Shown: positions 3,409 to 55,211 of the stretch, in pieces
Layout of the letters: every line of letters starts with the position of its first letter
How positions within the stretch are numbered: the stretch's first letter is position 1
DNA from: Octopus sinensis
Lineage: Eukaryota
NCBI RefSeq assembly: GCF_006345805.1
Contig: NC_042999.1
Location: 80,662,001-80,726,000 of the forward strand
Direction of reading: 5' to 3'
Length of the DNA: 64,000 nt
Program-made: the position numbers and the translations under genes
Notes under the pieces: generated by a model
The model's database searches: none
What the model was told of the DNA's origin: nothing
Seen by the model: only the letters and a program-made list of their open reading frames with translations

Positions 3409-3452
<44 letters not shown>
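3300..3452. repeat. (CAT)n/(TAT)n microsatellite
   Basis: Direct reading. Confidence 0.95.
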
Positions 3453-3453
<1 letters not shown>

Positions 3454-4205
3454 TCTTCGTAACATAGTGTAGGTAAAGTCACAACAAGGACGTCTGACAG
3501 ATGATGTTTTCATTAAGATGTTCGCTGTGCCCAATAAGCCTGCTTTTTGCAAGACATCAATCTTGCAAGGGATTCCTAGTTGCCTTAACAGGACTTGAAG
3601 TTTCAACGTCCCGATCATCACTGGTATCACTTTTACATTACCCTCTCGCATTCCATACAGTCTTGCTATTTCCACTTTCAATTCGGAGTAATTGATGATT
3701 TTTTCAACCACTTTATTCACAACATTCATGTCATTTGGTATGGCTAAATCAATGATCTGCCAGTATTTGTCTCTCATATTCTAATATGATAATATCCGGC
3801 CGATAGATACGTCTGAAAATCATAGTCTCATAGTCTCACTGTATAACGCTCCTGTTCCTCATCTTAACAGCCCTATCACCATTTCCCTGTTCCTCCTGCC
3901 TACTCTTCTCCTTGCTTTCAACTCCGACCATCCTGTGTAACCCATCCGCAGGGTCTCTCAGACTCTCAGTAATCCGAGATTTTTCTACTCCAGTTAAGTA
4001 ACTCTTCCTCCTAATTACTCTCACTTGGTTCATTAGTTTCCTTCTGACATTGGACACGTCCTTTTCCATCCAAAATTTCAACGTACGTCACCCTACTCCA
4101 TGACTTTTTTCCAGCTTTGCTCTTTCATAACATTCAATAAGTGTATCGTACTCCTCATTCGTTCACTTATATCTGTTTTGCGCACACTGTGTATGTGATC
4201 TGTTG
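3453..4205 (-). mobile_element. Internally deleted R4/Dong-type non-LTR retrotransposon (N-terminal region fused to RLE C-terminus)
   Basis: Minus strand RPDI..., IIDLAIPNDMNV..K..EKI.NY.ELKVEIARL...VIPVMIG...LQKAGLLGTANIL is an RLE endonuclease end; MKFWMEK...LMNQVRVI is Dong-like N-terminus; flanked by (TAA)n/(TGA)n tracts. Confidence 0.8.
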
Positions 4206-6818: not shown

Positions 6819-7004
6819 GTATATATATATAAAATTAATAGTTATCGCCATACTTAAATGGTAGTCGTATAAATATAAGACTAAAGCTGTCGCTGATTAG
6901 CTCCAAGAGGCCACCGCCTCAAGCTAGCTATTTGACATACAACCTGCTTTCATTATAAACTTTCGAACAGGGGAGGTCAGCCGCTTCATCCTGCCAGTCA
7001 GACA

Positions 7005-7047
7005 GCTGCAGACATGTTTCAGGGTATTTGCCCTTTATCAATGCAGC
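7005..7047 (-). ncRNA. Minimal type-I hammerhead ribozyme (U3-A8), intact
   Basis: GCTGCA-TTGATAA-AGGG(caaata)CCCT-GAAA-CATG-TC^TGCAGC. Confidence 0.85.
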
Positions 7048-7369
7048 GTACTCAGACCCAGCAGGTGTCGCTACTGACTGTCCCTGTTCGAAGAATCTAT
7101 TTACCTAGTTTCAGTGGAATATATCCACTTGCTTTCAATAATAGAAATATTAAAATTACAAAGTCTCTCTAAAGGAGATCACGGCAGCGTTACTGGAAAT
7201 TAATAGTTATCGCCATATTTATATGGCAGTCTTATAAATATAAGACTAAAGCTGTCGCTGATTAGCTCCAAGAGGCCACCGCCTCAAGCTAGCTATTTGA
7301 CACACAACCTGCGTCCATTATAAACTTTCGAACAGGGGTGGTCAGCCCCTTCATCCTGCCAGTCAGACA

Positions 7370-7412
7370 GCTGCAGACATGTTTGAGGGTATTTGCCCTT
7401 TATCAATGCAGC
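7370..7412 (-). ncRNA. Hammerhead copy with G12C (GAAA to CAAA), predicted inactive
   Basis: Plus strand reads gtttgaggg where the sister copies read gtttcaggg. Confidence 0.75.
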
Positions 7413-7733
7413 GTATTCAGACCCAGCAGGTGTCGCTACTGACTGTCCCTGTTCGAAGAATCTATTTACCTATTTTTCTGGAATACATCCACTTGTTTTC
7501 AATAATAGAAATATTAAAATTACTAAGTCTCTCTAAAGGAGATTACGGCAGCGTTACTGGAAATTAGTAGTTATCGCCATACTTATATGGCAGTCGTATA
7601 AATATAAGACTAAAGCTGTCGCCGATTAGCTCCAAGAGGCCACCGCCTCAAGCTAGCTATTTGACACGCAACCTGCATCCATTATAAACTTTCGAACAGG
7701 GGAGGTCAGCCGCTTCATCCTGCCAGTCAGACA

Positions 7734-7776
7734 GCTGCAGACATGTTTCAGGGTATTTGCCCTTTATCAATGCAGC
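7734..7776 (-). ncRNA. Minimal type-I hammerhead ribozyme (U3-A8), intact
   Basis: Identical motif to 7005-7047. Confidence 0.85.
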
Positions 7777-8022
7777 GTAGTCAGACCCAGCAGGTGTCGC
7801 TATTGACTGTCCCTGTTCGAAGAATCTATTTACGAAGGTTTATAATTGACGCAGGTTGTATGTCAAATAGCTAGCTTGAGGCGGTGGCCTCTTCGAGCTA
7901 ATCAGCGACAGCTTTAGTCTTATATTAATAAGACTGCCATATAAGTATGGCGATAACTATTAATTTCCAGTAACGCTGCCGTAATCTCCTTTAGAGAGAC
8001 TTAGTAATTTTAATATTTCTAT

Positions 8023-8089
<67 letters not shown>

Positions 8090-8139
8090 ACACACACACA
8101 CACACACATATATATATAATATATATATATATATATGTT

Positions 8140-8208
8140 TGGCTGAAGAAGGTAAAGTAAATATGGGTGAGAGACATATCTTGCAAAACCTGAAACCTGC
8201 AGGTACCA
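8140..8208 (+). ncRNA. Type-I hammerhead ribozyme with extended stem II and palindromic stem III
   Basis: TGG-CTGAAGA-AGGT..GTAA-ATATG..CATAT-c-TTGC..ACCT-GAA-ACCTGCAGGT-A^CCA. Confidence 0.8.
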
Positions 8209-8577
8209 CATTATCCATTTTCCGGGTGTTTCATCTTTCAGATGTTCTCCCTGGCGGTAAGACGGTTTTTTTTTTTTTTTTCTCTATTTTGTTGCACACA
8301 CGCATTTTTACTAATACATACGCGGTGAAGCTACACTTTAGCGTCGTATTTTTACGTTCGCTATTTCCAGTAAATATCGGTACTTTGTTGTGCCATTTAT
8401 TTACTAATTTGTGTATTTTTCCCTCACGGGCTACTTTTTACTGGAAGGCAATACTTTGTATTGCATTACTGATATTTGAAACTTCTTCACCGTTTCTCGT
8501 ACTGTTAGCGTTCCGTATTTCAGTCGAGTGTGTTAGTATTTATGTGGTAACATCGTAGTTTCGTCTTGGTATACGTT

Positions 8578-8646
8578 TGGCTGAAGAAGGTAAAGTAAAT
8601 ATGGGTGAGAGACATATCTTGCAAAACCTGAAACCTGCAGGTACCA
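8578..8646 (+). ncRNA. Type-I hammerhead ribozyme, second copy of family B
   Basis: Identical to 8140-8208. Confidence 0.8.
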
Positions 8647-8850
8647 CATTATCCATTTTCCGGGTGTTTCATCTTTCAGATGTTCTCCCTGGAGGTAAGA
8701 CGGTTTTTTTTTTTTTTTTTCTCTATTTTGTTGCACACACGCATTTTTACTAATACATACGCGGTGAAGCTACACTTTAGCGTCGTATTTTTACGTTCGC
8801 TATTTCCAGTAAATATCGGTACTTTGTTGTGCCATTTATTTACTAATTTG

Positions 8851-8883
<33 letters not shown>

Positions 8884-8930
8884 CATTTATGTCATATTTC
8901 GTTTATTGTCTTTTTATTAATCCTGAAAAA

Positions 8931-9174: not shown

Positions 9175-9490
9175 GAAGACACGTGGCTTAGTGGTTAGAG
9201 CATTCGGCTCACGATTGTAAGGTCGTGAGTTAGATTCCTGGTGACCCGTTGTGTCCTCGACACTTTATTTCACGTTGCTTCAGTCCACTCAGCTGGCAAA
9301 ACTGCGTTGTACCTGCATTTCAAAGGGCCGGCCTTGTCACACTTTGTGTCACGCTGAATCTCCTTGAGAACTATGCTAGGGGTACGCGTGTCTGTGGATT
9401 GCTCAGTCACTTGGACGTTAATTTCATGAGCAGGCTGTTCCGTTAATAGTATCAGCTGGGACCCTCGTCGTCGTAACCGACGGAGCGCTC
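9175..9490 (+). mobile_element. tRNA-derived SINE family 3
   Basis: tggcttagtggttagagc (A box) and gtgagttagattcc (B-box-like); reverse-complement match to 30845-31147. Confidence 0.85.
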
Positions 9491-24138: not shown

Positions 24139-24174
24139 CGCAGCTGCTTGGTTGGAATGAGTAACAGAATAAAA

Positions 24175-25620
24175 GATGATTGCTTTATACTTTGGAAAGA
24201 TAGAATGGACAAATTCCCTCATTTCAAGATAATGCTCAACAATATCAATAGCAACATACAATTTACCATGAAACACACCAATAAATAACTCCCTTTTCTT
24301 CACATCTTAACTGAAATAGTCAATAACCACATCAAAACAAACATCTTCTATAAACCCACAGATTCAAAGCAATACCTATTAGTGAACTCATGCCACCCCG
24401 AACACATGAAAATTAATATACCTTATAATCTAGCGAAAATAATCTGTACCATAATTTTGGACACCAATGCTCGTGAGTGAAGACTCCTTGAACTCAGATC
24501 AATACTTGTCAAGAAACATTACCGAACATCATTAATAAATGATGTGATTAAACGAGCAAAGGAAACAGATATACGAACATTAAGGGAAGTTAACCGCAAT
24601 ACTATACCAGACTAAAAAATACTCCCATACATCTCCACACATAACTCTAGAAAGAACGAAGCCTTCAACATTACCATCCAAGATCTACCCATTCTCACAG
24701 GAGATAAAACTAGGAACAAAATTTTAGGCTCACACAAAATTATCAAGAGCAAAACGCAACCTAAATCATTGAAAAAAAATATAAACCAACGCAACATTTT
24801 ATCCATTAACAACGGAACCAAAAGTTGAAAAATGCGTTCGGCCTACCTGTGGCACATGCCCCCATCTTTTGGACAGTACAGAGTTCCACTTTAAACAAGG
24901 TGAAGTATTTAAGATTAAATCAAATTCACCTGTACCTCGGAAAACCTAAACTATGCCATTACCTGCTAAGGGTGCGGTAATCAATATATTGGCCAAACAG
25001 GTATATCATTCTGTCGAGGAACCACTCTTCACAAAGAACGAATCCGCTACCCGCAATACAAAGAGATACAGGTCAGTGAACACATAGATAGGTGTTCTAG
25101 AAACCTTAATCCTGATTTCCTAATTTTTCCCTTCAATCAATGTTCACAGAACACCTCAGTACAGCAAAGAATGAATAAAGGAACAACTTTCCTCAATAAA
25201 TATCATCCACAATATAATACAGAACACAACAAACCTTACAAATAATGCCACTAACACCCATACATTCTTTATGCCATTCATATTACAGTATTATATCGAC
25301 CCTAAATGCACCACGTCCAGAACTACATACCTCCCTTACACTATATTTTCACTCAGGGACTAGTAGACGCGACACCGTTTGATAATCGGTGCGCATTCAA
25401 ACCGATCCCGGTTTGACTTTGAATCTCTTTAAGAATTCATAATAATAAATTAACTTCTATCTCAGTTCATCTAATTGTATTTATTTATCGCTACTTTTCG
25501 TAAAAAAACCTTTATTTTTTTAATATTCAATGTGCATTTACGCTTTTTTTCTCAATACTTTCCCCATATCTTTTTCACGTGTAGTTTCTATTTTTTTTAA
25601 AACATATTTCTATAATATAT
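24175..25620 (+). mobile_element. 5'-truncated Penelope-like element (Neptune-type): RT C-terminus, Cys motif, GIY-YIG endonuclease and 3' UTR; pseudogenised
   Basis: DDCFILW..NIQFTM..LPFL..FYKPTDSKQYLL..SCHP.H.KINIPYNLA; KCVRPTCGTCP; CTSENLNYAITC*GCGNQYIGQTG; stops and frameshifts. Confidence 0.9.
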
Positions 25621-26559: not shown

Positions 26560-27118
26560 TGTCAACTCAACCCTGTCAGACAAACTTAAGAGGAATGTTT
26601 TCTGTGTAAGAGTCGTGCCAGTGATTTTATATGGAGCCTAGCATGGACGCTTACTGAAAAGCGGGAATCCAAGCTAGATGGAACTAACACTCACAGTGTT
26701 AAACATAACTCATCCCTCCAATGGACAACTGTATAGAGATTTCCTACATGTTTCCACCAATATAAGGTAGAGACGCTTGCGTTTAACAAGATATTGTTGG
26801 TGCACTAAACATGACCTGGCAAGTGACTTACTACTATAGATGCCAAAAATACATGATCATATAGTATATTGTAATATTAAGGAAATGCATACACTTAGAT
26901 GGAACTAACACTCACAGTGTTAAACATAACACATCCCTCCAAGGGACAACTGTATAGAGATTTCCTACATGTTTCCACCAATATAAGGTAGAGACGCTTG
27001 CGTTTAACAAGATATTGTTGGTGCACTAAACATGACCTGGCAAGTGACTTACTACTATAGATGCCAAAAATACATGATCATATAGTATATTGTAATATTA
27101 AGGAAATGCATACACTTA
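26560..27118 (+). mobile_element. LINE 3' coding remnant (RTE-X/L2-like) with a 221-bp local tandem duplication (26675-27118)
   Basis: SKLDGT...RRLRLTRYCW..KHDLASDLLL; tagatggaactaac at 26675 and 26896. Confidence 0.6.
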
Positions 27119-33699: not shown

Positions 33700-36399
33700 A
33701 TATTAGAAATTGCTGTCTTGGAACAGCAAAACTGGGCCGGTCAAGGGGTTGAGATTTTAATCCAGGCAAATCAGAACACAATAAAATATCACTCAGATTT
33801 AATAAAGCTACCGTATGGCACAACCCTACATATCACCGTTGAGGACAGAAGGCCACGTTGCTACCTTTTCGGTAGCCAATACCATTTAAAACAGACTGAA
33901 AATTGATAGAACAATAAAAGCAACAAGAACAGCAAAACCAGAATTCCAAGAGCAAACCAGCACCACCATCAGCACAAACAAAGGTGCAGCTCCACGATTA
34001 GATGAAAGAACTACTCAAAATACCCAAACAAATCAGCCAACCCAAGAAGTGACCACCACCGACAACAGAAGCAAAACCACCACCACCACCAACAACAGCC
34101 ACAGAAGTACCGAACCCTGAAAAGGTAAAAAAGGACCAACAACCCATTTATCACATCCCAATAACCATCAACTAACACCACCAACAACAACAACATCAAG
34201 AACAACACACTCACAAATTTATCCCAATACCCTTCCCTTTCCTTCCTCTGATTCCTCCGACATGTCGATACAGAAGAATAGCAAATGGCCACTGGGGTGG
34301 GGGAGAAAAGGAGTAAAGAATAGAAGTACACGCACTCAAACAAAGCAAGGAAGTCTACTGCTCTCGAGAACAAAACTATCTCACAAACACACACACATTA
34401 CCACCAATACTGCAAACACAAGCATCAAATGGCCCCACAATGTTGACAGTAATAAACACATACAATTCATACCTAATGCAATTCATTGGGTCAAAGACCA
34501 ACATAACAGAAGACAATATCAAAAATGTCAAAGATTGTGAGTTGGACAACAACCAACTTTCGAACAGTAAGTGACTCTCCCTCCCTCTCTCCCTCTCTCT
34601 CTGTCTCTGTCTCTCTCATTCTTTCATTTTTCTTTCGTGTGTAAAGCACAAATTTTGATAGGCTCATGCTTAGAATAGGTTGCATAATTATGAGTGGCTT
34701 GGGGTCGCCTTCCAAACAAGGCTACCTGTTAAATGACATCAAATCACAGAATCTGCATATCATAGCCACCAATGAGATCAGACTGCATGACCCGTGGGCC
34801 CTCCAGCACATGCTCAGCGGACAATTCGACATTTATTTTTCTCCGTGTCTGTCGAGAATGGGCGGAGTTAGTACCGCGGTGCTTTTCCGGAAGAGTCTGA
34901 CCCTCCAAATAAAAGCAGTATTCCTAGACCCAGAGGGTAGGCTGGTCGTCTTGGATGTCCATGCCAATAATGGGTGAGCTTTTCGACTGATAACAGTTAC
35001 CGTCTTTAATAGGTCGCCAGATTTCTTTCGATATTTAGAGATTTTCCTGGGAACGTCTCGACCTTTACTTTTAGTGGGAGATTGGAACGCTACCTTGGAC
35101 ACGCATCTAGACTACGTGGATAGAGATAGGAATAGGAGGTGATGTAAAAGCGTCAAAGACCTGCTCAGACGTTTACAACTGTCTGACAGGTACCGATTGG
35201 ACCAGCCGAATGTGCCAATGTGGACATGGAGCAACTGCATCGGGTCGTCCAAATCGTATTTAGATATAGTATTATGTAGAGGAGTGGATAGGGATAGTGT
35301 AGGTTGTCCACAATTGGTGGACTCGTGTGAAAGCTTTAGAGACAAGCAGTTTCCTCTCTAGCCTATCTCTCATCAACTCATCACCCTACTCCTCCAGGAA
35401 TCGATCCCAATGCCAACCCTAGAATAGCACAAATATGCATCCAGGAGCCACAACCCTACACCCAGTCTCCATCCAGTGAAGATGACTTTTTAATAATAGA
35501 TACGCGTAGAAAGAAATTGACCTGAGGGAGAAGGGATGATTTTGTCAACAGAAAAAATAACTGATGGAGAAAACGTAAGTTGTAAAAGATTTTGATATAT
35601 AAGAGACTATTGCAGATAAAAGAAGGATGAAATTGGTAAGGTGGTGTTAGTAATGCGGTCGCCAGAGATGAGGGGCCTCTGGAAGCCGCCAACCTTCCCC
35701 ACCTTACATTTAAAAAAAAAAAGAATAAAATTGACAAAATTTGAAATTCAGGACTAATTGTAAAAGGTTCAATGATTTCACTCGAAGTGTGGGCTTTGAG
35801 CGGCCGTCATTCTTCATTCTCTCTTTTCATCTTCTCATTCGTCTTGTTTTTTCCCCCAAATATATCTTGTCTGTCCTTGTGTCGTCCCCTCTATGTTGAG
35901 CCTTTATGGCGTGTTTAGAAATAAAATAAAAGGTTAAATTATCCCACTACTTTCAATGTATAGGAAGTAATCGTCATTGAAAGTGTCTTCAGCTGCATAT
36001 AATAGTGGGATCGGTTATAGTATTTTCATGCCAATCAATTACAAAACTCTCCTACAAATTTACCAATATCTGTAATAGCAAGGTTGTAACTAAAATGGAC
36101 AAATATTTTCTCAGAAACAATTTTCAAGAATGCTAACTGTCAACCGATTTAAGGAGTATTTTATTATTTTGCTGTCTTTGATTCATCCTATTTCTTAACC
36201 GATTAATTTGGATTTTTCATGATTTGGGATATGACATATGTGATTTTTTGCTTTATCTATGGTGTACTAATGAAATAATAATATCATCTTCATCGAGGAT
36301 CATATATTTTGTGAAAAAAAAAAGGATAGTTCACCAAATCAATTTATACATAGACCTGACAAGTGGATATTTCATATATTATGCAATAATGTGAATGTG

Positions 36400-42394: not shown

Positions 42395-42510
42395 ATTCAT
42401 ATTATTTGCAATCTTTATATTCGGCGGATATGTCCTCATATTGTTTGTTATTAACACGACGTTTCGGCTGATACACCCTTCAGCCTTCTTCAGAACCTGG
42501 GTTCTCATTT
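42395..42510 (-). mobile_element. Family E tail fragment with intact hammerhead core (42454-42493)
   Basis: Minus strand CTGAAGA-A-GGCTGA..TCAGCC-GAAA-CG-TC^GTGT; homologous to 33561-33690; 5' strand of stem I lost to a deletion. Confidence 0.75.
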
Positions 42511-43387: not shown

Positions 43388-45676
43388 CCATATACATACG
43401 TATATAAATGTATGTATATATATAGATAGACATGTGTATTATACATTTAAAAAATATATACGCGTATATATAGATATATCATGTTCTGATGTACGTTAGG
43501 TTTTATATATGTACACACATACACACGCACACACACACACACGCACACACATACACATGCACATAAACACATATGAATATACGTAGCTATTTATTCAATG
43601 TAATCAAACATAGGTGTAAGGTTTTCTCTTCGTCTGTATATGAAACATTTTATTCACTTTTTCAAAAGACAATTGTCTTTGATTTGATATTGCTGAAAAT
43701 AAGATACCATAGACAGAATATGTAATGTCAAACGAATACGTTTGAATCATCGTACTTTCATTTAACTTTATGTCTGAAGCAATTGCAGCGTCATATTTAG
43801 TGCAAATCTTACATACATCAAATCGTATCCATTGTTTGATCTATACAAATTTTTCACATTTGCATTCCTGCTGTTTGGGCAGTTAACTACAGATTTTGCA
43901 TTACGGTATATTACCGCTATAGCTGTTTTATTTTACTTCACTTTTTTGTTCTATAATACCAAGATATTGAGACATAATATCCATGACAAAAAAATAGTTG
44001 CTTTCAAAATACCAGAAATCAGAATGTATACTTTTGTCATTACTCTTCCGTTTTGTGTAGAAACATTGCAACATCTCTGGACGTTGATTGCGATATATAT
44101 ATATCTAGTCAATCCAAATAAGAACCAGCAAGAAAAACCAACAAAGCTAAGACGTGGAAGTATGTGTTATTGTACGTTGAGGAAAGGAAGGAAAAGAAAG
44201 AGGACTTCATGTTTCGAGCGGCTCTTCATCAGAAATATAGAAACAGTCCAAAGAAGGGAAGACGGAGGAACAAAATCGCCAACAATACACGCACACGCAC
44301 GCGCGCACACACACACACACCACACATATATATATATATATATATACATATATATAAACACTGATACAAAGACATACACATGATTACATATACATATACA
44401 TACATACACACACACACACACACACGCACACACACATATATAAACATTGATACAAAGACATACACATGTATACATATACATACACATACATACACACACT
44501 CAACACACACACAACACACACACACACAACACACACACACACAATATATATATATATATCCATATACATACGTATATAAATGTATGTATATATATAGATA
44601 GACATGTGTATTATACATTTAAAAAATATATACGCGTATATATAGATATATCATGTTCTGATGTACGTTAGGTTTTATATATGTACACACATACACACGC
44701 ACACACACACACACACGCACACACATACACATGCACATAAACACATATGAATATACGTAGCTATTTATTCAATGTAATCAAACATAGGTGTAAGGTTTTC
44801 TCTTCGTCTGTATATGAAACATTTTATTCACTTTTTCAAAAGACAATTGTCTTTGATTTGATATTGCTGAAAATAAGATACCATAGACAGAATATGTAAT
44901 GTCAAACGAATACGTTTGAATCATCGTACTTTCATTTAACTTTATGTCTGAAGCAATTGCAGCGTCATATTTAGTGCAAATCTTACATACATCAAATCGT
45001 ATCCATTCTTTGATCTATACAAATTTTTCACATTTGCATTCCTGCTGTTTGGGCAGTTAACTACAGATTTTGCATTACGGTATATTACCGCTATAGCTGT
45101 TTTATTTTACTTCACTTTTTTGTTCTATAATACCAAGATATTGAGACATAATATCCATGACAAAAAAATAGTTGCTTTCAAAATACCAGAAATCAGAATG
45201 TATACTTTTGTCATTACTCTTCCGTTTTGTGTAGAAACATTGCAACATCTCTGGACGTTGATTGCGATATATATATATCTAGTCAATCCAAATAAGAACC
45301 AGCAAGAAAAACCAACAAAGCTAAGACGTGGAAGTATGTGTTATTGTACGTTGAGGAAAGGAAGGAAAAGAAAGAGGACTTCATGTTTCGAGCGGCTCTT
45401 CATCAGAAATATAGAAACAGTCCAAAGAAGGGAAGACGGAGGAACAAAATCGCCAACAATACACGCACACGCACGCGCGCACACACACACACACACACAT
45501 ACATACATATATATATATACATATATATATAAACACTGATACAAAGACATACACATGATTACATATACATATACATACATACACACACACACACACACAC
45601 GCACACACACATATATAAACATTGATACAAAGACATACACATGTATACATATACATACACATACATACACACACTC

Positions 45677-45715
<39 letters not shown>
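43365..45715. repeat. Tandem duplication of about 1.17 kb bounded by (CA)n/(TA)n
   Basis: Near-identical blocks offset by 1172-1174 bp, for example 43832 versus 45006. Confidence 0.9.
44100..44290 (-). mobile_element. Family F short element with degenerate minimal hammerhead (44205-44235); duplicate at 45274-45464
   Basis: Minus strand TTT-CTGATGA-A-GAGC-C-GCTC-GAAACATG-AAG. Confidence 0.55.
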
Positions 45716-45730
<15 letters not shown>

Positions 45731-45744
45731 GTTACATATGAGAG

Positions 45745-46380
45745 ATTCTTTCAGTTTCCGTCAGCTAAAATCCACTTACAAGTCTTTGGTTGACTCGAGG
45801 CTACAGCAAAAGTCACTTGCCCAAGATGCCACGAAGTGGGACTGAACCTTGAACCATGTTGTTGGAGAGTAAGTGTCTTACAAGGCCATCTGCAGCCATG
45901 CTACCGCACCACTCTGAAGAATTTCACTACAACAAATCAACTCCAATGCTTATTTTCAGTAAGCATTGTTCTTACGTCATCACCTTCTTAGATCGAGCCG
46001 CTAAGTCACGGCTATGTAAGTACACCTTCACCGGTTGTAGGGAGGTAGTGGGGGACAAACAGAGATACATGCATACGTGAATATAAGCCATTCACACACA
46101 CACAAACACACACACACATATACATACAACAAGCTTCTTTCAGTTTCTATCTATCAAGTCAACTCACAAGAACACTTGCTAATTGCTGGTATTGATCCCA
46201 GTACCAGTTACCCATTGGAGTCGATAATCGACTTAATCCGTTTGTCAGTTCTTGTTTGTCCCCTCTGTGTTTAGCCCCTTTTGGGTAGTAAAGAAACAGG
46301 TATTGATCCCGGAATAATGAATTTGAGGAGAAAACGTCTTACCACAAAGCCACCAATTAATTGCTGGCATGGACGCAGTG
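45745..46380 (-). mobile_element. Cluster of SINE family 1 fragments
   Basis: ttctttcagtttc, cacttgcccaag and gccatgct..gcacc reverse-complement matches. Confidence 0.7.
46200..46298 (+). mobile_element. 5'-truncated SINE (family-2 body, LINE-like tail) with 12-bp TSD
   Basis: TSD GGTATTGATCCC at 46188-46199 and 46299-46310. Confidence 0.75.
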
Positions 46381-49127: not shown

Positions 49128-49745
49128 TCTATATATATAAATATTTGACATAGGCGATTCTTTCTATTCTTGCGATTCACGGTCAAACGGTTGGGTGGAA
49201 TTGCGCAAAAAATTACACAGATGTGTAGAATGATCCATTCGTGATGCTGGGCTTTGTATTTTTCATAGCTCCCATGGTTACCGAGATAATCTACTATAAT
49301 ATTATTCTTGTGTTTATGAATGGGAAAGGAAGGAGTGATACATGAATAAGGAAGGAAGGGGTCGTGTCATAATTTTTCATCGCTGCCATGGTTACCGAGA
49401 TAATCTAATATAATAATACTCTTGTGTTTATCAGTGAGAAAGGAAGGGGTGGTACATGAATAAGGAAGGAAGGGGTGATGTCATACTTGGTAGTGTACGC
49501 TGAACTTAATAAATCAAATTGCGTTTCAACTCTGCAAGAATATGTGTTTGTATGAAAAAGGGTGTGTGCATGCAATGGAAGTGGGATGGTTCATCTTTGT
49601 TCGCTTAGTATTTGGGTTTCTTTTTTTGATTTGGTTGAATCTTGGTTGGTTTTTCTTGTTGGTCAGTTATTTTTAGTGTTTTGACAGAAAAATCATTCTA
49701 AAATTGTTTTTTTAACGTAAGCGTGCACAAACAAGTCGTATGCTT
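49128..49745 (+). mobile_element. Possible non-autonomous Helitron with internal tandem repeat of about 114 bp (49255-49490)
   Basis: Starts A|TCTATATATATAAAA; ccatggttaccgagataatct at 49272 and 49386; 3' end not found. Confidence 0.35.
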
Positions 49746-54024: not shown

Positions 54025-54419
54025 CAAAAAAATACAGTGTCATTGCACACGAATGAAAGACACGTTCAAAAAATTATACTTTAGAAAATTATATCTTAAC
54101 ACCTCAGTATTGTAGCCATTCCCGTAGCACTTTACAGTTGCTATATGCTCAAATGGAGTCTAAGAAACTAGTCTAGACAGAAACTTACAATGTTACAATT
54201 TACAACATTTAAAATAGACCAAAATAATACAGTGTCATTGCACACGAATGAAAGACACGTTCAAAAAATTATACTTTAGAAAATTATATCTTAACACCTC
54301 AGTATTGTAGCCATTCCCGTAGCACTTTACAGTTGCTATATGCTCACATGGAGTCTAAGAAACTAGTCTAGACAGAAACACACAATGTTACAATTTACAA
54401 CATTTAAAATAGACCAAAA
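54025..54419. repeat. 195-bp local tandem duplication
   Basis: aatacagtgtcattgcac at 54031 and 54226. Confidence 0.9.
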
Positions 54420-55211
54420 ATAAAAAAAATATGTAGTGTCTTTCCCATATGCCGATAATTTCCTCCACCGCCTCTGTACACTATGCTTCACAATGTTCAT
54501 CGTTTGCATATGCCGATAATTTCCTCCAGCCACAGACTTTGTACACCATGATTCGCACTGTTCCAGTTCCTGGAGAACTAGAAAAAGAGATTCAGTAAAT
54601 ATAGTTGAGATCAGTAAAGACAAAGCTAGCGTATGAAAGAATAAATTTCGATAGGTAATCATTTAGTTTGGTCACAGATGAGATGCTTCTATATACTGAG
54701 GCACTCCAGTCTCTAAAACTCGGTACGACTAACAACTGCACGGAAAATAAAACACAAAATATCAATGAATTTCCTGAAGAAAGCTTCCGATCGCTGCAAA
54801 TTTGATCAAATCTTCACCGGCGCCTGTGTACTACCCATCCTTTCTGTGATCTATCTTAGGCTGGAGATTGCCATGGATACTTTATCAGATAAAGAAGAAT
54901 CCTGATAGAAAAAGATCATCCGTATATCAAGAGAGAAAAGAGCTTCTAACTGATCATCAAATGTGAACGTCAACGACAAAATGCAATTATCGCGTAACTG
55001 TTGAAAATGGCTAAAAGAATATTAGATCTAAAAAGTCCTAAATGAGGACTACAAAATCAATATCTATTGAACTGAGTTAATGGAGTATGCTGAATTGTTT
55101 CCAGAGAGATATCATCAGATCAGGTGTTAAATTTGTGCTTGTATATATGTATATATATATATATATTATATGTTTGCATATATATGTATATGTATGTATA
55201 TGTATGTATAT

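What the first reader, a model, noticed from the sequence alone, without database searches (positions are those of the whole stretch)
8137..8851. Family B: 438-bp tandem unit with canonical core, elongated stem II and 10-nt palindrome
Seen: canonical CUGAAGA/GAAA core, GUA cleavage triplet, perfect palindrome ACCUGCAGGU, and a bulged stem II of about 42 nt. The two hammerheads are identical and 438 nt apart, the arrangement needed for dimeric folding and monomer release. The 5' end of the insertion is only 3 nt upstream of stem I. Stem I is short (UGG/CCA). It lies about 110 bp from the family A array in the same TA/CA tract, suggesting an insertion hotspot.
Basis: partly seen in the sequence, partly recalled or inferred. 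Interest (0 to 1): 0.7.

Follow-up and report, generated by a model that had tools for sequence, protein, structure and literature searches.

The report
Penelope-type hammerhead repeat in TA microsatellite
This is a 438-base repeat (1.6 copies) in an animal genome with two identical hammerhead ribozyme motifs that are predicted to cut only as a pair, and it is likely an ordinary non-coding parasite (a 'retrozyme') copied by Penelope-like retrotransposons, not a new kind of element.

Summary
Observation confirmed. 8137-8851 holds 1.63 copies of a 438-bp unit. Two identical type I hammerhead motifs lie 438 nt apart, with a 42-nt bulged stem II, a 10-nt palindrome, a GUA site and a 3-bp stem I. 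Folding predicts a lone copy is trapped in inactive hairpins, while the two palindromes pair with probability 0.93-0.999. The motif fits the published Penelope-like-element (PLE) hammerhead consensus; its 10-nt palindrome, short stem I, A17 site and unit size all have precedents. Both ends abut (TA)n, and the window holds a decayed Neptune/Nematis-type PLE. Best reading (0.62): a recent non-autonomous, PLE-mobilised retrozyme insertion. Main rival (0.22): two truncated PLE ends inserted head-to-tail, so that 438 nt is not a real unit. No second locus exists in the window and the host genome could not be searched. Cleavage, transcription and circles are untested. The 'hotspot' reduces to general (TA)n targeting. 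One oddity: a 131-codon frame starts in stem II and spans the cleavage site, but it is frameshifted in copy 2 and has no credible homologue. New member of a known kind; interest 0.32.

The parts
8137..8574 (+). First, complete 438-bp unit (GC 37.7%, T 40%)
8575..8851 (+). Second, partial unit (277 bp; repeats 8137-8412 with one substitution and one extra T)
8413..8574 (+). Segment present only once (Z); pairs at long range with the repeated segment in predicted folds
8140..8208 (+). Type I hammerhead 1: stem I 8140-8142/8206-8208, core 8143-8149, stem II 8150-8191, GAA 8192-8194, palindrome 8195-8204, A17 = 8205
8578..8646 (+). Type I hammerhead 2, identical; predicted cut after 8643
8150..8191 (+). 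42-nt stem II: 4 bp (A-U at the base), AAA/AAA loop, 4 bp, C bulge, 5 bp, 9-nt loop; holds an ATG at 8163 with A at -3 and G at +4
8195..8204 (+). 10-nt palindrome; predicted to pair with 8633-8642 as the shared stem III of a double hammerhead (duplex -17.7 kcal/mol)
8206..8643 (+). Predicted self-cleaved monomer / circle, 438 nt, highly self-paired (z -4.62; 0 of 100 shuffles as stable)
8163..8558 (+). 131-codon open frame from the stem II ATG across the cleavage site; probably not a real gene
   Evidence: no credible homologue
8257..8262 (+). Splice-donor-like GTAAGA in front of the T-rich body (possible retained intron; untested, motif common by chance)
8023..8136 (.). Left flank (TA)n(CA)n(TA)n separating family A from family B; 5-nt junction similarity to the unit
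8852..8883 (.). Right flank (TA)n; 5-nt junction similarity with one G/A mismatch (8413 vs 8852)

Best explanation
The locus holds two identical Penelope-type hammerhead motifs 438 nt apart inside a (TA)n tract, and is likely a recent insertion of a non-autonomous retrozyme whose RNA is predicted to cut itself as a double hammerhead and would be copied into TA repeats by a Penelope-like reverse transcriptase. Steps: (1) shown in sequence: two complete motifs, 1.63 units, TA on both sides. (2) Predicted: one copy alone folds into inactive hairpins that bury the palindrome; two copies in one RNA pair their palindromes into a 10-bp shared stem III, which frees stem II and allows cuts after 8205 and 8643. 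(3) Inferred from coral, mussel and axolotl retrozymes: the 438-nt piece is closed by a host RtcB-type ligase into a stable, self-locked circle. (4) Inferred: a Neptune/Nematis-type PLE enzyme nicks (TA)n, primes about 208 nt past the cut site and copies more than one round of the circle (or an uncut multimer), giving 1.63 copies. (5) Inferred: the unit descends from a PLE pseudo-LTR, the ATG in stem II being the relic start codon. This particular copy yields a monomer only if it is read through from upstream.
For: Motif far above chance (0 of 60 shuffles). Fits the metazoan PLE hammerhead consensus in PMC4209133 supplement (U-rich 5' flank, 3-nt stem I, CUGANGAH, palindrome, AU-rich 3' flank), with precedents for a 10-nt palindrome (Aedes), A-U at the stem II base plus A17 (Marsupenaeus, D. 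willistoni) and 450-bp tandem units. Palindrome duplex probability 0.93-0.999 and stem II of copy 1 0.75-0.85 in the two-copy RNA; active double fold 6.0-11.2 kcal/mol above the ensemble for two sites against 6.0-10.5 for one site in single-copy RNAs and 7.8 in the circle. Monomer fold z -4.62; the outermost helix between the repeated and single segments closes 24 and 39 nt from their join, as expected of a closed unit. 715 bp is more than one unit but less than two, so not a simple DNA duplication. Both ends abut (TA)n, which covers 4.6% of the window. The right junction resembles the first bases of the single segment (5 nt; 10 of 438 positions do as well), hinting that the template ran on across the join. 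A PLE remnant with RT, CX4CxxC linker and GIY-YIG lies at 24148-25230. Family A next door shows the PLE hallmarks (inverted piece, repeated end point). In the anole PLE the ORF starts at stem II of the hammerhead.
Against: No cleavage, transcript or circle data. No second locus in 64 kb; host genome not searchable. The join at 8412/8413 is seen once. No sequence similarity to the PLE remnant's 3' region (73 of 200 shuffles score as well), to family A (173 and 106 of 200) or to the 42493 motif (83 of 200), and no tblastn match of 28 PLE proteins in 8000-8900. Stem I is 3 bp with probability below 0.01 in the unconstrained folds; stem II of copy 2 only 0.07-0.08. In the longest context (8100-8851, 37 C) the double fold is no cheaper than a single hammerhead 2 (11.2 vs 10.0). 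Base of stem II is A-U, not the usual G-C. PLE hammerheads are slow in vitro, needed protein in the anole PLE and were dispensable for insertion; 8 of 9 Xenopus dimers did not cut.
Confidence: 0.62

Rival explanations
1. Partial tandem of two 5'-truncated 3' ends of an autonomous PLE: a 276-bp piece (8137-8412) followed by a 439-bp piece (8413-8851), both ending at the element's usual 3' end. The 438-nt spacing is then an accident of one insertion and no 438-nt circle ever replicated.
For: Both pieces end at the same base by construction; partial tandems and insertion next to earlier copies are typical of PLEs. The motif is PLE-type with an ATG in stem II. The order single-then-repeated segment folds as well as the other (z -4.18 vs -3.51). 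The PLE remnant in the window also ends in a T-rich stretch before TA.
Against: The truncation point would have to fall by chance just outside the closing helix, begin with TA-like bases (25 of 438 positions reach 4 nt) and keep the reading frame open. No similarity to the one PLE in the window. Family A proves that true tandem hammerhead units exist in this genome.
Confidence: 0.22
2. The unit is a protein-coding circle: the 438-nt (146-codon) circle is translated from the stem II ATG across the ligation junction into a 131-residue hydrophobic peptide.
For: One stop in 146 codons on that frame; 11 of 2000 dinucleotide shuffles give an ATG frame as long; 3 of 1164 overlapping genomic windows and 0 of 193 T-rich ones do. 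Length is a multiple of three; ATG context has A-3 and G+4; hydrophobic segment near residue 97. Ribozyme-flanked circles of 3n length with open frames occur in totiviruses.
Against: Copy 2 has one more T and is out of frame after 40 codons. Given 17 sense stops, one frame with at most one has P about 0.03, found post hoc. No codon-position bias (270 of 2000 shuffles). No Pfam match, one weak 26%-identity multi-stretch hit among 1.8 billion representatives, no Atlas hit above 0.80. Retrozymes are described as non-coding.
Confidence: 0.05
3. Inactive relic or local satellite seed: a solo PLE-derived piece expanded by DNA-level events (extrachromosomal circle, unequal exchange in the microsatellite), with the hammerhead playing no part.
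For: Li et al. favour local tandem amplification of PLE termini and found 8 of 9 dimers inactive. The flanks are unstable microsatellites. Junction microhomology also fits DNA repair.
Against: Intact core and perfect palindrome in both copies, strongly folded monomer, and 1.63 copies cannot come from one simple duplication without later loss.
Confidence: 0.08
4. Chance motif or assembly artefact (a falsely duplicated 277-bp stretch).
For: Copies are nearly identical and one difference is a homopolymer length; Rfam finds nothing.
Against: 0 of 60 shuffled windows give such a motif; a substitution separates the copies; the motif matches a published consensus.
Confidence: 0.03

Closest known systems
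Metazoan non-LTR retrozymes (Cervera and de la Pena 2020, PMC7229834; Li et al. 2026, 10.64898/2026.07.22.740005)
   Same: Type I hammerhead once per 150-450-bp unit, GC under 50%, no LTR or protein similarity, self-paired monomer, co-occurrence with PLEs, dimeric cleavage as in axolotl.
   Different: Only 1.63 units; stem I 3 bp and PLE-type rather than the canonical 6-bp helix; 42-nt stem II; unit at the top of the invertebrate size range; the predicted circle hides its hammerhead in alternative hairpins, whereas most metazoan circles were predicted to leave it free; no expression data.
Hammerheads in PLE pseudo-LTRs (Cervera and de la Pena 2014, PMC4209133), especially Marsupenaeus japonicus, Drosophila willistoni, Aedes aegypti
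   Same: CUGANGA core followed by A, short stem I, longer-than-canonical stem II, palindromic stem III up to 10 nt, A at position 17, A-U at the stem II base, U-rich flanks; D. willistoni has 450-bp tandem arrays.
   Different: Stem II is 42 nt with 13 bp, longer than any in the alignment part I read; no RT-endonuclease frame is attached.
Poseidon PLE of Anolis carolinensis (Frangieh et al. 2024, PMC11167929)
   Same: Start codon at stem II of the hammerhead; AT-rich targets; insertion ends a short way downstream of the hammerhead.
   Different: Autonomous; priming 111-118 nt into the ORF in an AC-rich loop without homology, against a U-rich end 208 nt past the cut here.
Family A of the same window (364-bp unit, minus strand)
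   Same: Tandem hammerhead unit with palindromic stem III, A-U at stem II base, ends about 180 and 240 nt past the cut abutting (TA)n.
   Different: No sequence similarity; U3-A8 core, 6-bp stem I, 6-nt palindrome; two loci, inverted piece, compensatory changes.
Zetavirus-like ribozyme-flanked circles (PMC13725137; 10.64898/2026.09.16.752053)
   Same: Size, 3n length, long open frame.
   Different: Genomic DNA element, ribozyme on one strand only, frame has a stop, opposite strand closed (longest ATG frame 38 codons).

Membership tests
Type I hammerhead ribozyme | Core CUGANGA ... GAAA ... UH in type I order | tested here: met
Type I hammerhead ribozyme | Three helices can close the core | tested here: met
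   Stem I 3 bp, stem II 4+4+5 bp, stem III 3 bp alone or 10 bp as a pair; stem I weakly populated in unconstrained folds
Type I hammerhead ribozyme | Site-specific self-cleavage | not testable with these tools
   needs in vitro transcription
Type I hammerhead ribozyme | Match to an Rfam hammerhead model | tested here: not met
   a detection limit for variants rather than a definition (family A motifs are also missed)
Canonical (Schistosoma-like) type I hammerhead | 6-bp helix I and 4-bp helix II capped by a short interacting loop | tested here: not met
   helix I 3 bp, stem II 42 nt; not filed as canonical
Canonical (Schistosoma-like) type I hammerhead | Loop 1-loop 2 tertiary contact | tested here: inconclusive
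   U at 1.7 (8212) and an A just outside the 4-bp base of stem II (8187) could form the Hoogsteen contact described in PMC11875169; not modelled
PLE-type hammerhead (Cervera and de la Pena 2014) | Consensus U-rich, NNN, CUGANGAH, G...C, GAAAN-palindrome-NUH, NNN, AU-rich | tested here: met
   differs by a U pairing with the extra A, as in the Marsupenaeus and D. willistoni rows
PLE-type hammerhead (Cervera and de la Pena 2014) | Palindromic stem III favouring dimers | tested here: met
   duplex probability 0.93-0.999, monomer stem III at most 0.01
Metazoan non-LTR retrozyme | Tandem unit of 150-450 bp, GC under 50%, one type I hammerhead per unit | tested here: met
   438 bp, 37.7% GC, two motifs
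Metazoan non-LTR retrozyme | At least two consecutive full units (Li et al. operational rule) | tested here: inconclusive
   two complete motifs but 1.63 units; not listed by TRF
Metazoan non-LTR retrozyme | Stable self-paired monomer | tested here: met
   z -4.62, 0 of 100 shuffles
Metazoan non-LTR retrozyme | No encoded transposition protein | tested here: met
Metazoan non-LTR retrozyme | Many dispersed or arrayed copies in the genome | not testable with these tools
   none in the 64-kb window; host genome not available; 0 matches in prokaryotic genomes, which is uninformative
Metazoan non-LTR retrozyme | Expressed as linear and circular monomers | not testable with these tools
   no RNA data
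Metazoan non-LTR retrozyme | PLEs present in the same genome | tested here: met
   remnant at 24148-25230; an intact partner not seen
Autonomous Penelope-like element | RT plus GIY-YIG reading frame between pseudo-LTRs | tested here: not met
   no tblastn match of 28 PLE proteins at the locus; not filed as autonomous
Zetavirus-like circle | Ribozyme and endless frame on both strands | tested here: not met
   no minus-strand motif; 8, 11, 3 stops on the minus frames and 1 on the best plus frame

The most novel reading that the evidence does not exclude
A genome-encoded retrozyme circle that is also a messenger: self-cleavage splits, and ligation restores, a 131-codon frame that starts inside hammerhead stem II and fills 90% of a 3n-length circle, while the monomer locks its own ribozyme with hairpins that reuse the palindrome. 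It would bridge animal retrozymes and coding viroid-like circles.
Probability: 0.05. Interest if true: 0.75.

Novelty: new member of a known kind. Interest (0 to 1): 0.32.

Why it matters
As it stands it adds one more family to a class that is common in animal genomes. Two features give it modest use. First, it offers a testable answer to a question left open in PMC7229834 (why retrozyme circles do not cut themselves open): here the palindrome has two predicted alternative partners in a single copy and is freed only by a second copy. Second, it sits with a second hammerhead family and a PLE remnant, all ending in (TA)n, which extends the retrozyme-from-PLE idea, shown so far mainly in vertebrates, to an invertebrate-looking genome. 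It would matter much more only if the junction-spanning frame proved conserved and translated.

Tried and rejected
Rfam scans found no hammerhead family. Short-fragment folds did not give the active hammerhead and were no more stable than shuffles. A decayed hammerhead after the PLE remnant's reading frame (about 25378) was considered and dropped: it needs two core changes and stem I does not form; the region folds as other hairpins. Sequence kinship of family B to that PLE tail, family A or the 42493 motif was not found; an 11-nt word shared with family A is within chance. Pfam, PDB and Atlas did not recognise the PLE remnant and a first homologue search with its endonuclease piece found none; only the longer read-through did. 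The 131-codon frame found no family; the single weak hit was not examined. A motif scan of prokaryotic genomes gave 0. An intron 8257 to about 8523 is possible (donor-like word, branch-like words, T-rich body) but such words are common and no splice model or RNA data was at hand. Pol III transcription is unlikely because of the T16 run (general knowledge). A target-site duplication cannot be read in the TA flanks. The hotspot idea was not significant. Lunse et al. 2017 on dimeric PLE hammerheads was not held; the supplement of PMC7229834 could not be read, file 1 of the PMC4209133 supplement was not searched and bioRxiv supplements are closed, so a prior listing of this family there is not excluded. 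Metagenome and viral contig collections stayed unchecked.

Full report
Setting. The window is AT-rich (30-42% GC), full of microsatellites and transposon debris, with no tRNA genes: animal non-coding DNA. My impression that it is cephalopod, probably octopus, rests on recall of its microsatellite density and of the SINE at about 9177-9490; no call tested it and the argument does not depend on it.

Observation. Two hammerhead cores lie at 8143 and 8581 and two 10-nt palindromes at 8195 and 8633, 438 nt apart. The insertion runs 8137-8851: a full unit (8137-8574) and 277 bp repeating 8137-8412. The repeats differ by one substitution (C8255/A8693) and one T in a run of 16 or 17. Bases 8413-8574 occur once, so this is 1.63 copies, and TRF does not list it. 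Stem II is 42 nt (4+4+5 bp), stem I is 3 bp, the triplet is GUA and the predicted cuts after 8205 and 8643 give a 438-nt monomer. A descriptor allowing both core variants found 5 sites in the window (2 of family B, 2 of family A, 1 at 42493), against 0.27 per shuffled window; 0 of 60 shuffles gave a palindrome of 6 nt or more with 4 bp of stem II (descriptor written post hoc). Rfam misses the motif (0 matches at gathering score; 0 of 43 weak matches are hammerheads). No other copy is in the window.

Folding. Short single-motif fragments do not adopt the active fold (4 of 4). In 4 of 4 single-copy contexts the monomeric stem III has probability at most 0.01; the palindrome's 3' half pairs instead with the 3' strand of stem II in two alternative hairpins (0.24-0.86 and 0.04-0.56), and the active fold costs 6.0-10.5 kcal/mol, 7.8 in the circle. 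In the two-copy RNA 8120-8680 the palindromes pair with each other at 0.93-0.999 and stem II of copy 1 rises to 0.75-0.85; stem II of copy 2 stays at 0.07-0.08 and stem I below 0.01. Forcing both active junctions costs 6.0, 9.0 and 11.2 kcal/mol in three contexts at 37 C; forcing one monomeric hammerhead there costs 10.0-14.0, so the dimer wins in two contexts and not clearly in the longest. Separately, the junction cutting at 8205 costs 3.7 and that at 8643 5.4. These are nearest-neighbour energies without tertiary contacts and with no validated ribozyme as calibration. The monomer is strongly self-paired (z -4.62, 0 of 100 shuffles); stem II alone is not exceptional (14 of 200). U8212 (position 1.7) and A8187 could make the Hoogsteen contact described in PMC11875169 (passages), which would make the long stem II a canonical 4-bp helix with an extension; untested.

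Kind of hammerhead. The alignment in the supplement of PMC4209133 (part 2 of file 2 read; main text parts 1-2) gives the metazoan PLE consensus: U-rich flank, three-base stem I, CUGANGAH, long stem II, palindrome, AU-rich flank. Family B fits it. Aedes has a 10-nt palindrome (also noted in a figure legend of PMC3088659, passages); Marsupenaeus and D. willistoni have A-U at the stem II base and A at 17; D. willistoni has arrays of 450-bp units. Only the 42-nt stem II exceeds what that alignment shows. In the anole Poseidon element the reading frame starts at stem II, the ribozyme needed the protein to cut and was dispensable for insertion in vitro (PMC11167929, parts 1-2). Family B has an ATG in stem II with A-3 and G+4.

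Surroundings. Both ends abut (TA)n; such tracts cover 4.6% of the window. Of 8 element ends checked, 6 met the strict TA criterion (2 of 2 for B, 3 of 4 for A, 1 of 2 for the PLE remnant). Family A (364 bp, minus strand, U3-A8 core) has a 2.7-copy array, an inverted piece at 7833-8025 and an older locus at 1220-1719 with the same end point, the PLE layout described in PMC8557442 (passages). A decayed PLE lies at 24148-25230: 28 of 859 candidate proteins matched, with RT and in part GIY-YIG domains, best tblastn 43% over 372 residues, and a CX4CxxC linker that marks the Neptune and Nematis clades and was proposed to drive microsatellite targeting. Family B shares no detectable sequence with it or with family A. 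With some 30 TA tracts in the window and 2-3 touching family A, adjacency is about a 1 in 10 event, so a special hotspot is not needed.

Mechanism. Most likely (0.62) a non-autonomous, PLE-derived retrozyme: read-through RNA with two motifs folds as a double hammerhead and releases 438 nt; a host ligase closes it, as shown in vitro with RtcB for axolotl and mussel (PMC7229834, parts 1-4); the circle hides its ribozyme; a PLE enzyme primes at (TA)n about 208 nt past the cut and copies more than one round. Only the anatomy is shown; folding is predicted; ligation, mobilisation and ancestry are inferred. If the promoter is internal, transcripts of this copy would carry only the second motif and release nothing. 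Li et al. (bioRxiv 10.64898/2026.07.22.740005, parts 1-3) link vertebrate retrozymes to PLE pseudo-LTRs but saw cleavage in only 1 of 9 dimers.

Main rival (0.22). The same sequence can be read as two truncated PLE ends, 8137-8412 and 8413-8851, inserted head to tail. Folding cannot separate the readings (z -3.51 vs -4.18, 0 of 60 shuffles each). Against it, the join would by chance lie just outside the closing helix (24 and 39 nt), start with TA-like bases and keep a frame open. One genome-wide BLAST would settle it.

The open frame. 8163-8558 encodes 131 residues and crosses the cut site, so it is intact only in uncut RNA or the circle; 438 is a multiple of three. 11 of 2000 shuffles give a frame as long, as do 3 of 1164 overlapping genomic windows and 0 of 193 T-rich ones. 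But given 17 stops the imbalance has P about 0.03, there is no codon-position bias (270 of 2000), copy 2 is frameshifted, and Pfam, 1.8 billion representatives and the Atlas give nothing credible. Probability 0.05. Precedents are viral (PMC13725137, abstract and passages; 10.64898/2026.09.16.752053, abstract).

Literature coverage. Searches for retrozyme/hammerhead/octopus, octopus/Penelope/hammerhead, cephalopod/ribozyme/tandem repeat and retrozyme/metazoan/open reading frame/mollusc/circRNA (listings) showed no paper describing cephalopod retrozymes or a coding animal retrozyme; the giant squid genome paper lists 235 Rfam hammerhead hits (passages). Reviews PMC6155905, PMC6765202, PMC7761336 and PMC3846280 were seen as passages. 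Unread supplements and the unheld Lunse 2017 paper may list this family or long stem II variants.

Verdict. Interest 0.32.

Noticed in passing
window 6832-8025 and 1220-1719: Family A: minus-strand U3-A8 hammerhead; the middle copy (core 7406) has C in place of G12 and is probably dead; the older locus (core 1487) shows compensatory changes in stem II and a different 6-nt palindrome, real covariation support. The inverted piece and the older locus end at the same unit position.
   Followed up: partly
window 24139-25610: 5'-truncated, decayed Neptune/Nematis-type Penelope-like element (RT, CX4CxxC linker, GIY-YIG) starting at a TA tract, with a 365-nt structured, partly T-rich tail (z -2.39).
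   Followed up: partly
window about 42455-42500, minus strand: Solo minimal PLE-type hammerhead (CUGAAGA core, extra A, 6-bp stem II, 4-nt palindrome) with poor stem I.
   Followed up: partly
window about 9177-9490: tRNA-like head (weak Rfam tRNA match, 18 bits) of what looks like a SINE; the cephalopod family assignment is recalled, not tested.
   Followed up: no
window 26675-27118, 54025-54420, 49258-49485: Two-copy tandem repeats of 221, 195 and 114 bp; no hammerhead motif found in them by the descriptor.
   Followed up: partly
window about 43500-45750: A roughly 1.17-kb segment appears twice with near-identical open frames at 43778 and 44952; recent duplication or assembly artefact.
   Followed up: no
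window 34645-34977 and 3409-3780: Fragments resembling LINE-type elements (weak endonuclease Pfam match at 34645, E 0.054; the second judged by eye).
   Followed up: no
window 7963-7973, 8363-8373, 8802-8812: An 11-nt word is shared by the sense strands of families A and B, 39-52 nt before their 3' ends; within chance, but a candidate shared signal for the PLE enzyme.
   Followed up: partly
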